Below are positions 24,947-25,300 of a stretch of DNA of 64,000 bases, one piece after another. This stretch comes from Escherichia coli (GTDB taxonomy: Bacteria; Pseudomonadota; Gammaproteobacteria; Enterobacterales; Enterobacteriaceae): assembly GCF_003334765.1 (NCBI RefSeq), contig NZ_QOWT01000012.1. The stretch is one strand, 5' to 3'. The position numbers and the translations under genes were made by a program. The notes under the pieces were generated by a model, which was given only the letters and a program-made list of their open reading frames with translations, had not been told where the DNA came from and ran no database searches. The number at the start of each line of letters is the position of its first letter. Position 1 is the stretch's first letter.

Positions 24947-25300
24947 CGCCATTTACCTTCATGATAGTTCAATTCGAATCAATATGTGATTGGTTTTGAT
25001 TAATCCTGACACTATTTTTTCAGGAAGGCAATGACCATTTTTTGACTTTTTGCCAGGTAAGTTGTTGTTGATTTTGAGTGTGGAAAGATTTAATGGAATG
25101 TGTAGTTAAATTAACTAAATGAATTTAAATAAATAATTGTTTCGTTATGTGAATCCCACTCTATCCGTGTGGAATTATTTGCGGGTCGCGTCACATTTAA
25201 TCATAAATAATCTTGTTGTGATTACTTTTGAAAATTAGAGTGAGTGCACAACATTCCGGGTGTGCGGAATACCCGGTTACCTCTTCTTCAGGAGATCGTT
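24947..25300. promoter_or_regulatory. Divergent ulaG / ulaABCDEF control region
   Basis: 354-bp AT-rich spacer between divergent ula genes with several TGTGA-like motifs; operator positions not resolved. Confidence 0.6.

What the first reader, a model, noticed from the sequence alone, without database searches (positions are those of the whole stretch)
25200..25300. Hairpin in the ulaA leader within the ulaG-ulaA divergent control region
Just upstream of the ulaA start, the sequence ccgggtgtgcggaatacccgg can form a GC-rich stem-loop ending about 25 nt before the ribosome-binding site. The 354-bp spacer also carries several TGTGA-like half-sites consistent with the known CRP/UlaR/IHF control of this regulon. 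The hairpin could affect leader stability or translation.
Basis: partly seen in the sequence, partly recalled or inferred. Interest (0 to 1): 0.2.

Follow-up and report, generated by a model that had tools for sequence, protein, structure and literature searches.

The report
Conserved hairpin in ulaA mRNA leader
The small GC-rich hairpin just upstream of the E. coli vitamin-C transporter gene ulaA is real and is kept as an RNA structure across enteric bacteria, so it is probably a functional but ordinary stem-loop in the mRNA leader whose exact role is untested.

Summary
The window is E. coli. The 354-bp ulaG–ulaA spacer and the hairpin (25256-25276; 8 bp, 5-nt loop, -13.4 kcal/mol) are as described. 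One detail is off: the hairpin ends 13 nt before the Shine-Dalgarno and 24 nt before the ATG.

E. coli alone gives marginal support (z -1.7 to -2.5). Comparison across 80 enterobacterial loci is decisive:
- A sequence-only alignment of 25 leaders (Escherichia to Klebsiella) gives the same helix. 93% of cells are paired, and 5 of 8 pairs show compensatory double changes.
- There are 40 G·U pairs against 5 A·C. This places the selection on the sense-strand RNA, not on DNA.
- Other genera carry unrelated hairpin sequences at the same place. All 19 leader clusters fold better than shuffles.
- In E. coli genomes only the loop varies.

The upstream block is almost invariant and reads as a CRP site, TGATT repeats, -35 TTGTTG and -10 TAGAGT. 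It predicts a start near 25248, which puts the hairpin at about +9 to +29. I found no experimental start site.

The hairpin is not a terminator, an Rfam family, a repeat or an operator, and it does not mask the ribosome site. My best guess is a cis-acting mRNA-stability element, held with low confidence. It is a new member of a known kind, of modest interest.

The parts
25256..25276 (+). Leader stem-loop. 5' arm 25256-25263 (CCGGGUGU), loop 25264-25268 (GCGGA), 3' arm 25269-25276 (AUACCCGG).
   Evidence: The fold is -13.4 kcal/mol. RNAalifold on the MAFFT alignment A2 returns the same 8 pairs. 93.4% of cells are paired, 5 of 8 pairs show double changes, and slid registers reach at most 42.6%. 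There are 40 G·U against 5 A·C.
25248..25255 (+). Predicted single-stranded, C/A-rich 5' tail of the ulaA mRNA (ACAACAUU). The predicted transcription start is at 25248 +/- 2, which is K-12 4,419,927.
   Evidence: Inferred from the conserved -10 TAGAGT, which ends 6 nt upstream, and from a conserved GCAC motif. This is not verified experimentally.
25277..25289 (+). Pyrimidine-rich, G-poor linker (UUACCUCUUCUUC) between the hairpin and the Shine-Dalgarno.
   Evidence: It is unpaired in all folds. A similar CU-rich linker is present in other genera.
25290..25303 (+). Shine-Dalgarno AGGAG (25290-25294) and ulaA start codon ATG (25301-25303).
   Evidence: GGAG and ATG are invariant across 26 genera. 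The RefSeq ulaA start in K-12 matches.
25236..25241 (+). Predicted -10 hexamer TAGAGT of the ulaA promoter.
   Evidence: It is nearly invariant (TA[G/C/A]AGT) in 78 loci. This is a positional inference, not an experiment.
25213..25218 (+). Predicted -35 hexamer TTGTTG, with a 17-bp spacer to the -10.
   Evidence: It lies in the conserved block AATCTTGTnGTGATTA. It matches only 3 of 6 consensus positions, as expected for an activator-dependent promoter, and the simple scan did not call it.
25177..25198 (.). CRP-like site ATTTGCGGGTCGCGTCACATTT. The centre is at 25187.5, which is -60.5 or -61.5 from the predicted start (class I position).
   Evidence: It is the best CRP-consensus match in the spacer, with 8 of 10 core positions. 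TTGCG-N6/7-TCACA is invariant across genera while the N6 spacer varies.
25191..25231 (.). Conserved AATCA / GTGATTA / TTnTGA(TT)A motifs flanking the -35. These are candidate UlaR operators of the ulaA promoter.
   Evidence: There is an imperfect inverted repeat at 25191-25206 / 25216-25231. The block is almost invariant in 26 genera. UlaR is reported to bind four operators in this regulon (PMC3219644). Assigning these particular motifs to UlaR is my inference.
25301..26698 (+). ulaA coding sequence (PTS ascorbate transporter IIC, 465 aa).
   Evidence: ORF list; 100% identical relatives; RefSeq annotation.
23882..24946 (-). ulaG coding sequence (L-ascorbate-6-phosphate lactonase), transcribed divergently.
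   Evidence: ORF list; RefSeq annotation of the identical K-12 region.

Best explanation
**What it is.** The element is an RNA stem-loop at about +9 to +29 of the ulaABCDEF mRNA. It lies between a short C/A-rich 5' tail and a pyrimidine-rich linker that leads into the Shine-Dalgarno. It is transcribed from the CRP-activated, UlaR-repressed sigma-70 promoter immediately upstream.

**What is shown.**
- The structure is selected as RNA on the sense strand across Enterobacteriaceae.
- Its sequence is free to drift.
- It is single-copy.
- It is not followed by a U-tract.
- It does not change the predicted accessibility of the ribosome-binding site.

**What is inferred.** It acts in cis and after transcription initiation. 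The most likely role is a structural obstacle in the 5' UTR that slows 5'-end-dependent RNase E attack or scanning. That would raise the lifetime, and so the yield, of the long six-gene transcript once UlaR repression is lifted.

**Confidence.** I put about 0.9 on it being a real, selected RNA structure in the ulaA leader. I put about 0.35-0.4 on the stability mechanism specifically. The confidence figure given is for the whole statement.
For: **Structure.**
- The fold is -13.4 kcal/mol and 0.89 of the ensemble.
- It is retained in longer contexts.

**Covariation.**
- The MAFFT-only alignment A2 has 25 distinct leaders.
- RNAalifold predicts exactly this helix on it.
- 93.4% of cells are paired, against 83.0 +/- 1.3 in shuffles (0 of 500 reach it).
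- 28 cells have changes on both sides, against 7.7 +/- 3.2 in shuffles.
- The covariation score is 0.521 against 0.314 (0 of 500). Slid registers reach at most 42.6% paired.
- E. albertii alone shows C-G to U-A at the second pair.

**Strand.** The sense strand is 93.4% paired and the antisense strand would be 75.6% paired. There are 40 G·U and 5 A·C.

**Other genera.** Enterobacter, Kosakonia, Leclercia, Buttiauxella and others carry unalignable hairpins at the same place.
- Across 69 leaders the mean z is -1.55 and 94% are negative.
- Central-spacer windows of the same loci give a mean z of -0.22 with 50% negative.
- All 19 sequence clusters have a negative mean z (sign test 1.9e-6).

**Within E. 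coli.** Three 90-nt haplotypes cover 4514 of 5213 genomes. Within the hairpin they differ only in the loop.

**Promoter placement.** The CRP site, -35 and -10 block is invariant and keeps a fixed spacing. The CRP site centre lies at -60.5 or -61.5 from the predicted start.

**Ribosome site.** Its accessibility is essentially unchanged by the hairpin: 0.348 against 0.339.

**From memory.** The idea that 5'-UTR structures impede RNase E (the ompA-type 5' stem-loop; RNase E scanning obstacles) is established knowledge that I recall. It was not tested here.
Against: - No experimental transcription start, half-life or reporter data could be retrieved.
- Under the predicted start the hairpin is preceded by about 8 unpaired nucleotides, and by 1-14 nt in other genera. 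To my recollection the classical ompA-type 5'-terminal protector tolerates only about 2-4.
- Neither the distance to the 5' end nor the distance to the SD is tightly conserved. Position therefore does not discriminate between mechanisms.
- Covariation shows that the structure matters but says nothing about which process it affects.
- Formal compensatory changes come from one clade only. The Enterobacter and Kosakonia clusters show only one-sided changes.
Confidence: 0.4

Rival explanations
1. Translation-initiation context element. The hairpin locks up the G-rich leader sequence and delimits a single-stranded pyrimidine-rich platform just upstream of the SD. That platform would act as a ribosome or S1 standby site, setting ulaA translation efficiency rather than mRNA stability.
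For: - The architecture is conserved: an unstructured C/A-rich tail, the hairpin, then a 10-15 nt CU-rich G-poor linker and GGAG.
- The SD-to-AUG segment is predicted to be largely paired with early codons in E. coli (unpaired probability about 0.35-0.39). That is the situation in which standby sites are useful.
- SD accessibility is slightly higher than with shuffled leaders (0.348 against 0.339, Wilcoxon p = 0.02).
Against: - The accessibility effect is tiny: the mean percentile is 0.57.
- The SD/AUG pairing with codons is not conserved (consensus -1.2 kcal/mol).
- The distance from the hairpin to the SD varies between clusters.
Confidence: 0.2
2. Transcription-elongation element. The nascent hairpin forms when RNA polymerase is near +40. 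It would stabilise a promoter-proximal pause or prevent backtracking, helping to couple the first ribosome to the polymerase on this long operon.
For: - The hairpin sits at a roughly constant, promoter-proximal place in many genera.
- Its 3' end is 13-14 nt upstream of the SD. A hairpin-stabilised pause 10-12 nt downstream would therefore fall just before the RBS. This is a positional argument only.
Against: - There is no consensus pause sequence at the expected distance in E. coli: no pyrimidine-G step at 25286-25291 (sequence).
- There is no U-tract and no terminator call.
- Nothing was tested directly.
Confidence: 0.1
3. Binding site for a trans-acting factor. One candidate is CsrA, which would recognise GGA in the loop plus GGA in the SD. 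Another is a small RNA pairing to the C/A-rich tail.
For: - In this window the loop is GCGGA and the SD is AGGAG, with the two GGA motifs 25 nt apart. To my recollection this resembles the two-site CsrA arrangement.
- The predicted 5' end CACAACAU resembles C/A-rich GcvB targets, also from memory.
Against: - The loop GGA is not conserved. It is GCGAA in a haplotype carried by at least 763 E. coli genomes. It is absent in Salmonella, Klebsiella, Kosakonia and one Citrobacter lineage.
- The predicted GcvB R1 duplex (-13.2 kcal/mol) is worse than 87% of random 56-mers from the window, and the predicted sites are not positionally conserved.
- No held paper links ulaA with CsrA, GcvB or a hairpin.
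Confidence: 0.07
4. No function. The hairpin is a chance or neutrally drifting structure in a poorly constrained leader.
For: - E. coli alone is only marginally better than shuffles.
- The leader sequence is poorly conserved.
- A covariance model of the Escherichia–Klebsiella hairpin does not recognise other genera.
Against: - There are compensatory changes at 5 of 8 pairs and 93% pairing.
- There is a 40:5 G·U to A·C asymmetry.
- All 19 independent sequence clusters fold better than shuffles, while neighbouring spacer windows do not.
- Variation within E. coli is confined to the loop.
Confidence: 0.08
5. DNA-level palindrome. The inverted repeat would be an operator for UlaR or another dimeric regulator, or a cruciform, downstream of the promoter.
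For: It is an inverted repeat located in a control region known to bind UlaR, CRP and IHF.
Against: - The sequence changes completely between genera, while the UlaR/CRP block next to it is invariant.
- 20% of the pairs are G·U, which are mismatches in DNA and on the other strand.
- The DNA repeat finder did not list it as an inverted repeat.
Confidence: 0.03

Closest known systems
5'-UTR stabiliser stem-loops and RNase E scanning obstacles (for example the ompA 5' hairpin). Recalled from established literature, not read here.
   Same: It is a short stable hairpin near the 5' end of an mRNA. It acts in cis, is defined by structure rather than sequence, and does not overlap the RBS.
   Different: Under the predicted start about 8 nt precede the hairpin, which is more than a classical 5'-terminal protector tolerates. 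No half-life data exist for ulaA. Membership is therefore unproven.
Intrinsic terminator or leader attenuator
   Same: It has a GC-rich stem (71% GC within a 35% GC spacer) and a small loop, and it lies in a leader upstream of the first gene.
   Different: There is no U-tract after the stem (UUACCUC...), the terminator scan makes no call, and there is no alternative anti-terminator apart from a weak -7.2 kcal/mol Escherichia-only fold.
CsrA two-site targets (GGA in a hairpin loop plus GGA in the SD)
   Same: This strain has GGA in the loop and GGA in the SD, 25 nt apart.
   Different: The loop GGA is lost in common E. coli haplotypes and in most other genera, while the stem is kept.
Ribosome standby sites (a single-stranded platform flanked by structure)
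   Same: An unstructured pyrimidine-rich segment lies between a stable hairpin and a partly structured RBS.
   Different: There is no conserved RBS-sequestering helix, and the computed effect on accessibility is negligible.
Rfam cis-regulatory families
   Same: It is a conserved, covarying structure in the 5' UTR of a metabolic operon.
   Different: No Rfam 15 family matches. The best hits are eukaryotic lncRNA or snoRNA models far below their thresholds. An 8-bp hairpin is also too small to be a ligand-binding riboswitch.

Membership tests
Conserved structured cis-RNA (generic) | The helix is supported by compensatory substitutions in an alignment that was not fitted to the structure. | tested here: met
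   On the MAFFT alignment A2, 5 of 8 pairs have double changes, 93.4% of cells are paired, the covariation score is 0.521 against 0.314 (0 of 500 shuffles), and slid registers reach at most 42.6%.
Conserved structured cis-RNA (generic) | The structure is specific to the transcribed strand (G·U tolerated, A·C avoided). | tested here: met
   There are 40 G·U against 5 A·C. The sense strand is 93.4% paired and the antisense strand 75.6%.
Conserved structured cis-RNA (generic) | It lies inside the transcript, with the start site upstream. | tested here: inconclusive
   The conserved -10 TAGAGT and the class I CRP spacing predict a start at 25248 +/- 2. No experimental start site could be obtained.
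Rfam family | A match to a curated covariance model at or near the gathering score. | tested here: not met
   The best hit scores 19 bits against a gathering score of 60 and is to an unrelated eukaryotic model.
Intrinsic terminator / attenuator | A GC-rich stem-loop immediately followed by a run of U. | tested here: not met
   The scan finds 0 terminator-like sites in 24900-25350. The stem is followed by UUACCUCUUCUUC.
ompA-type 5'-terminal stabiliser hairpin | The hairpin begins within about 2-4 nt of the 5' end of the mRNA (criterion recalled from the literature). | tested here: inconclusive
   The predicted unpaired tail is 8 nt in E. coli and 1-14 nt in other clusters. This depends on a start site that is only inferred.
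ompA-type stabiliser / RNase E scanning obstacle | Removing the structure shortens mRNA half-life in an RNase E-dependent way. | not testable with these tools
   This needs rifampicin chase experiments on stem mutants in wild-type and rne/rppH backgrounds.
CsrA binding site | A GGA motif presented in the hairpin loop and conserved among relatives. | tested here: not met
   The loop is GCGGA here and GUGGA in K-12. It is GCGAA in a haplotype carried by at least 763 genomes. There is no GGA in the Salmonella, Klebsiella or Kosakonia hairpins.
GcvB (C/A-rich element) target | A predicted duplex with GcvB R1 that is better than background and positionally conserved. | tested here: not met
   The duplex is -13.2 kcal/mol against a background mean of -17.7, and 87% of random windows do at least as well. 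The predicted sites move between genera.
Repetitive extragenic palindrome / mobile hairpin | Multiple copies in the genome. | tested here: not met
   There is a single match in the 64-kb window at up to 3 mismatches. The covariance model finds only this copy. The median is one place per E. coli genome.
Protein operator (DNA palindrome) | The sequence is conserved wherever the regulator is conserved. | tested here: not met
   The hairpin sequence is unalignable between genera, while the adjacent CRP/UlaR block is invariant.
Class I CRP-dependent sigma-70 promoter (context of the hairpin) | A CRP site centred near -61.5 upstream of a weak -35 and a recognisable -10. | tested here: met
   The CRP-like 22-mer at 25177-25198 matches 8 of 10 core positions and is centred at 25187.5. 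The -35 is TTGTTG, the spacer is 17 bp, and the -10 is TAGAGT. All are conserved with fixed spacing. CRP activation of ulaABCDEF is reported in the literature.

The most novel reading that the evidence does not exclude
The hairpin could be the recognition element of a so far unknown post-transcriptional control layer of the ascorbate regulon. A trans-acting protein or RNA would read the structure, or the tail–hairpin–linker architecture as a whole. It would couple ulaABCDEF translation or decay to PTS status, anaerobiosis or carbon status, in addition to UlaR, CRP and IHF.
Probability: 0.08. Interest if true: 0.5.

Novelty: new member of a known kind. Interest (0 to 1): 0.27.

Why it matters
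In the papers available here, the ula regulon is described only at the level of transcription initiation, through UlaR looping, CRP and IHF. A leader structure maintained by compensatory evolution across Enterobacteriaceae implies that the ulaABCDEF transcript is also tuned after initiation.

This matters for anyone modelling or engineering this promoter. Reporter fusions that include or omit +9 to +29 may behave differently. It also gives a small, clean test case for how promoter-proximal hairpins set mRNA fate. It does not overturn anything known.

Tried and rejected
**Rejected by tests.**
- Rfam: no family matches.
- Intrinsic terminator: none called.
- Ribosome-site masking or unmasking: accessibility is 0.348 with the native leader and 0.339 with shuffled leaders, so the hairpin is not a meaningful insulator.
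- Conserved helix pairing the SD/AUG with codons 4-8: predicted in E. coli but not supported across 23 genera.
- CsrA: the loop GGA is not conserved, and no paper links CsrA to ulaA.
- GcvB pairing to the CACAACAU tail: worse than background. The first attempt, with full-length GcvB, gave meaningless over-extended duplexes.
- Alternative hairpin AUUCCG/CGGAAU as a switch: -7.2 against -13.4 kcal/mol, and found in Escherichia only.
- Upstream in-frame GTG at 25244 as a coding extension: leader lengths in relatives are not multiples of three.

**Limits of the comparison.**
- The covariance model built from the Escherichia–Klebsiella clade does not detect the Enterobacter, Kosakonia, Leclercia or Buttiauxella leaders. 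One family-wide structural alignment was therefore not possible.
- Separate RNAalifold runs on the Enterobacter and Kosakonia clusters gave only one-sided changes.

**Literature that could not be used.**
- Campos 2002 and 2004 and Kröger 2012 are not held. Thomason 2015 is not held either.
- The TSS tables of Kim 2012, Ettwiller 2016 and Mendoza-Vargas 2009 have no ulaA entry in the stored text.
- The PredCRP and UlaG-family supplements were uninformative.

Full report
**What is there**

The window is Escherichia coli. The 354-bp spacer is 100% identical to strain 300709 and 97.5% identical to K-12. ulaG starts at 24946 on the minus strand and ulaA at 25301 on the plus strand. This matches the RefSeq annotation of K-12, where the ulaA ATG is at 4,419,980.

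It folds as CCGGGUGU / GCGGA / AUACCCGG, with 8 pairs including one G·U and a 5-nt loop. The energy is -13.4 kcal/mol and the fold makes up 0.89 of the ensemble. The same hairpin appears when 151 nt or the predicted 93-nt 5' segment are folded. The hairpin is 71% GC in a spacer of 35% GC.

**Is it more than chance?**

On E. coli alone the evidence is weak. The z-score is -1.69 on 41 nt, with 16 of 200 shuffles folding as well. On the 43-nt leader it is -2.5 with p = 0.017. The case rests on comparison. I fetched 80 enterobacterial ulaA loci and read the 130 nt upstream of each start.

**Context from phylogenetic footprinting**

I aligned the whole spacer from 26 genera. On the ulaA side there is an almost invariant block: AATAAtTTGCG-N6/7-TCACAaaTAATCA-N5-AATCTTGTnGTGATTAnTTnTGAttAnTAGAGTG, followed by GCAC. 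The spacing within the block is fixed, with one 1-nt exception.

I read this block as follows:
- A CRP site at 25177-25198, with 8 of 10 core matches and a centre at 25187.5.
- AATCA/TGATT repeats, which are likely UlaR operators. They form an imperfect inverted repeat around the -35.
- A weak -35, TTGTTG, at 25213-25218.
- A 17-bp spacer.
- A -10, TAGAGT, at 25236-25241.

This predicts a start at about 25248, the A of the conserved GCAC-A. That places CRP at -60.5 or -61.5, a class I position. The literature available here confirms only the general picture: UlaR represses through four operators, CRP activates ulaABCDEF, and IHF assists. The primary papers that mapped the promoters are not held. 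Three genome-wide TSS tables had no ulaA entry in the stored text. The start site is therefore inferred, not shown.

TGTGA/TCACA occurs 4 times in the spacer against 0.75 expected. Two of these occurrences belong to GTGATT repeats rather than to CRP sites.

**Comparative evidence for the hairpin**

Sequence conservation stops right after the predicted start, but structure does not.

*Covariation.* A MAFFT alignment made from sequence alone covers 25 distinct leaders from Escherichia, Citrobacter, Salmonella, Klebsiella, Raoultella, Kluyvera, Pluralibacter and relatives (A2). Counting pairs gives:
- 93.4% of 197 cells paired, against 83.0 +/- 1.3 in shuffles (0 of 500 reach it).
- 5 of 8 pairs with changes on both sides (C-G/U-A, G-C/A-U, C-G/U-A and others).
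- 28 cells changed on both sides, against 7.7 +/- 3.2.
- A covariation score of 0.521 against 0.314 (0 of 500).
- At most 42.6% pairing when the 3' arm is slid by 1-3 columns.

*Strand.* 40 of the paired cells are G·U and only 5 cells are A·C. The same helix read on the opposite strand would be only 75.6% paired. Selection therefore acts on the sense-strand RNA, not on a DNA palindrome. This also argues indirectly that transcription starts upstream of the hairpin.

*Other genera.* Enterobacter, Lelliottia, Leclercia, Kosakonia, Phytobacter, Buttiauxella, Trabulsiella and others have leaders that cannot be aligned with E. coli. A covariance model of the Escherichia–Klebsiella hairpin does not recognise them. 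Each nevertheless has its own hairpin at the same place. Examples are CACAGGG..CCCUcGUG, GCUGCAU..AUGCAGC and CCUGUUUU..AAAACAGG.

*Controls.*
- Over 69 distinct leaders the mean z against dinucleotide shuffles is -1.55, with 94% negative.
- Same-length windows from the central spacer of the same loci give -0.22 with 50% negative.
- Windows from the promoter block give -0.50.
- After collapsing to 19 clusters at 70% identity, every cluster has a negative mean z (sign test 1.9e-6).
- Within the Enterobacter and Kosakonia clusters I saw only one-sided G-C/G-U changes. Formal compensatory evidence therefore comes from one large clade.

*Within E. coli.* Three 90-nt haplotypes account for 1602 + 2149 + 763 = 4514 of 5213 genomes. 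Inside the hairpin they differ only in the loop: GCGGA, GUGGA in K-12, and GCGAA. The centre of the spacer diverges by up to 8-10%.

**What it is not**

- It is not an Rfam family.
- It is not an intrinsic terminator. There is no U-tract and the scan makes no call.
- It is not a repeated element. There is a single match in the window and one place per genome.
- It is not a protein operator. The sequence is not conserved while the neighbouring operators are invariant, and 20% of pairs are G·U.
- It is not a ribosome-site mask. The mean unpaired probability of the SD-to-AUG segment is 0.348 with native leaders and 0.339 with shuffled leaders.
- The CsrA idea fails on conservation of the loop GGA.
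- The predicted 5' end CACAACAU reminded me of GcvB's C/A-rich targets. The R1 duplex is weaker than for 87% of random windows and is not positionally conserved.
- A second fold that pairs the SD/AUG with codons 4-8 in E. coli has no comparative support.

**How it most likely works**

Shown: an RNA helix at a promoter-proximal position of the ulaA leader is under selection for pairing, irrespective of sequence. It is flanked by a G-poor C/A-rich 5' tail and a G-poor pyrimidine-rich linker.

Inferred: it acts in cis after initiation. I favour a role in mRNA lifetime, with probability about 0.35-0.4. The structure would obstruct 5'-end-dependent RNase E access or scanning into the AU-rich RBS region of a long six-gene transcript. 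The reasons are that the hairpin neither terminates nor masks the RBS, and that this is the commonest known role of such hairpins. That last point is established knowledge recalled from memory, not tested here.

The main weakness is the predicted 8-nt unpaired 5' tail. It is too long for a classical ompA-type terminal protector. Positions also vary too much between genera to discriminate between models.

Rivals, with rough probabilities:
- A translation standby or context role (about 0.2).
- A hairpin-stabilised promoter-proximal pause (about 0.1).
- A trans-factor site (about 0.07).
- No function (about 0.08).
- A DNA operator (about 0.03).

**Comparison with what is known, and novelty**

The regulon, its promoters and its regulators are known. 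I found no paper in the held library that mentions a hairpin in connection with ulaA expression, and no Rfam family covers it. The element is best filed as a new member of a known kind: a small structure-defined 5'-UTR stem-loop. It is of modest interest. It adds a probable post-initiation layer to a regulon described only at the level of initiation, and it is easy to test. A specialist would not find it surprising.

**Limits**

- The transcription start is inferred.
- Function is inferred.
- The covariation statistics are affected by shared ancestry. The shuffling control does not preserve relatedness.
- The structure tested was first seen in one of the aligned sequences.

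Noticed in passing
L086 (E. coli EC488, NZ_CP109874.1) 1700-2545; corresponds to window 25264-25272: In one of 5213 E. coli genomes an IS1 element is inserted inside the leader hairpin. It carries the target duplication TGGAATAC and separates the ulaA promoter from the RBS by about 0.8 kb.
   Followed up: partly
window 25291-25297 and 25303-25309: The Shine-Dalgarno region and the first codons form a direct repeat, GGAGATC ... GGAGATC. The E. coli MFE pairs the SD/AUG with codons 4-8. RNAalifold on 23 genera finds no conserved helix there.
   Followed up: yes
window 25253-25270: An alternative hairpin, AUUCCG/CGGAAU, overlaps the main one and is mutually exclusive with it. 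It would be transcribed first. It scores -7.2 against -13.4 kcal/mol and is possible only in Escherichia.
   Followed up: partly
window 25040-25175 (centre of the ulaG–ulaA spacer): The spacer is unusually polymorphic within E. coli: 1123 of 5219 genomes are only 90-95% identical to the window. The differences cluster in the centre of the spacer and in the N6 of the CRP site. The promoter and operator blocks and the leader stems stay invariant.
   Followed up: partly
window 25191-25231 and 24977-25003: AATCA/TGATT(A) motifs are conserved on both sides of the spacer: GTGATTGGTTTTGATTA near ulaG, and TAATCA..AATC..GTGATTA around the ulaA -35. The latter form an imperfect inverted repeat. They are candidate UlaR operators, and the count is consistent with the four operators reported in the literature.
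   Followed up: partly
window 25244-25300: The ulaA reading frame stays open upstream to a GTG at 25244, giving a 484-aa ORF in the mechanical list. Leader lengths in other genera are not multiples of three, and the GTG lies upstream of the predicted start. The extension is therefore not coding.
   Followed up: yes
window 24946-24952 (- strand): ulaG has two in-frame ATGs two codons apart, giving MAMSK (356 aa) or MSK (354 aa). RefSeq uses the shorter form. The simple promoter scan places a -10 (TATCAT, ending at 24961) so close that the SD would be excluded, so that call is probably not the real ulaG promoter.
   Followed up: no
window 25105-25131: An AT-rich segment in the middle of the spacer is partly conserved across genera (…ATTGATTTAA… in most, AAATGAATTTAAAT in E. 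coli). It contains a 10-nt inverted repeat (25103-25112 / 25122-25131). On the minus strand it resembles an IHF consensus, and IHF is reported to act in this spacer.
   Followed up: no
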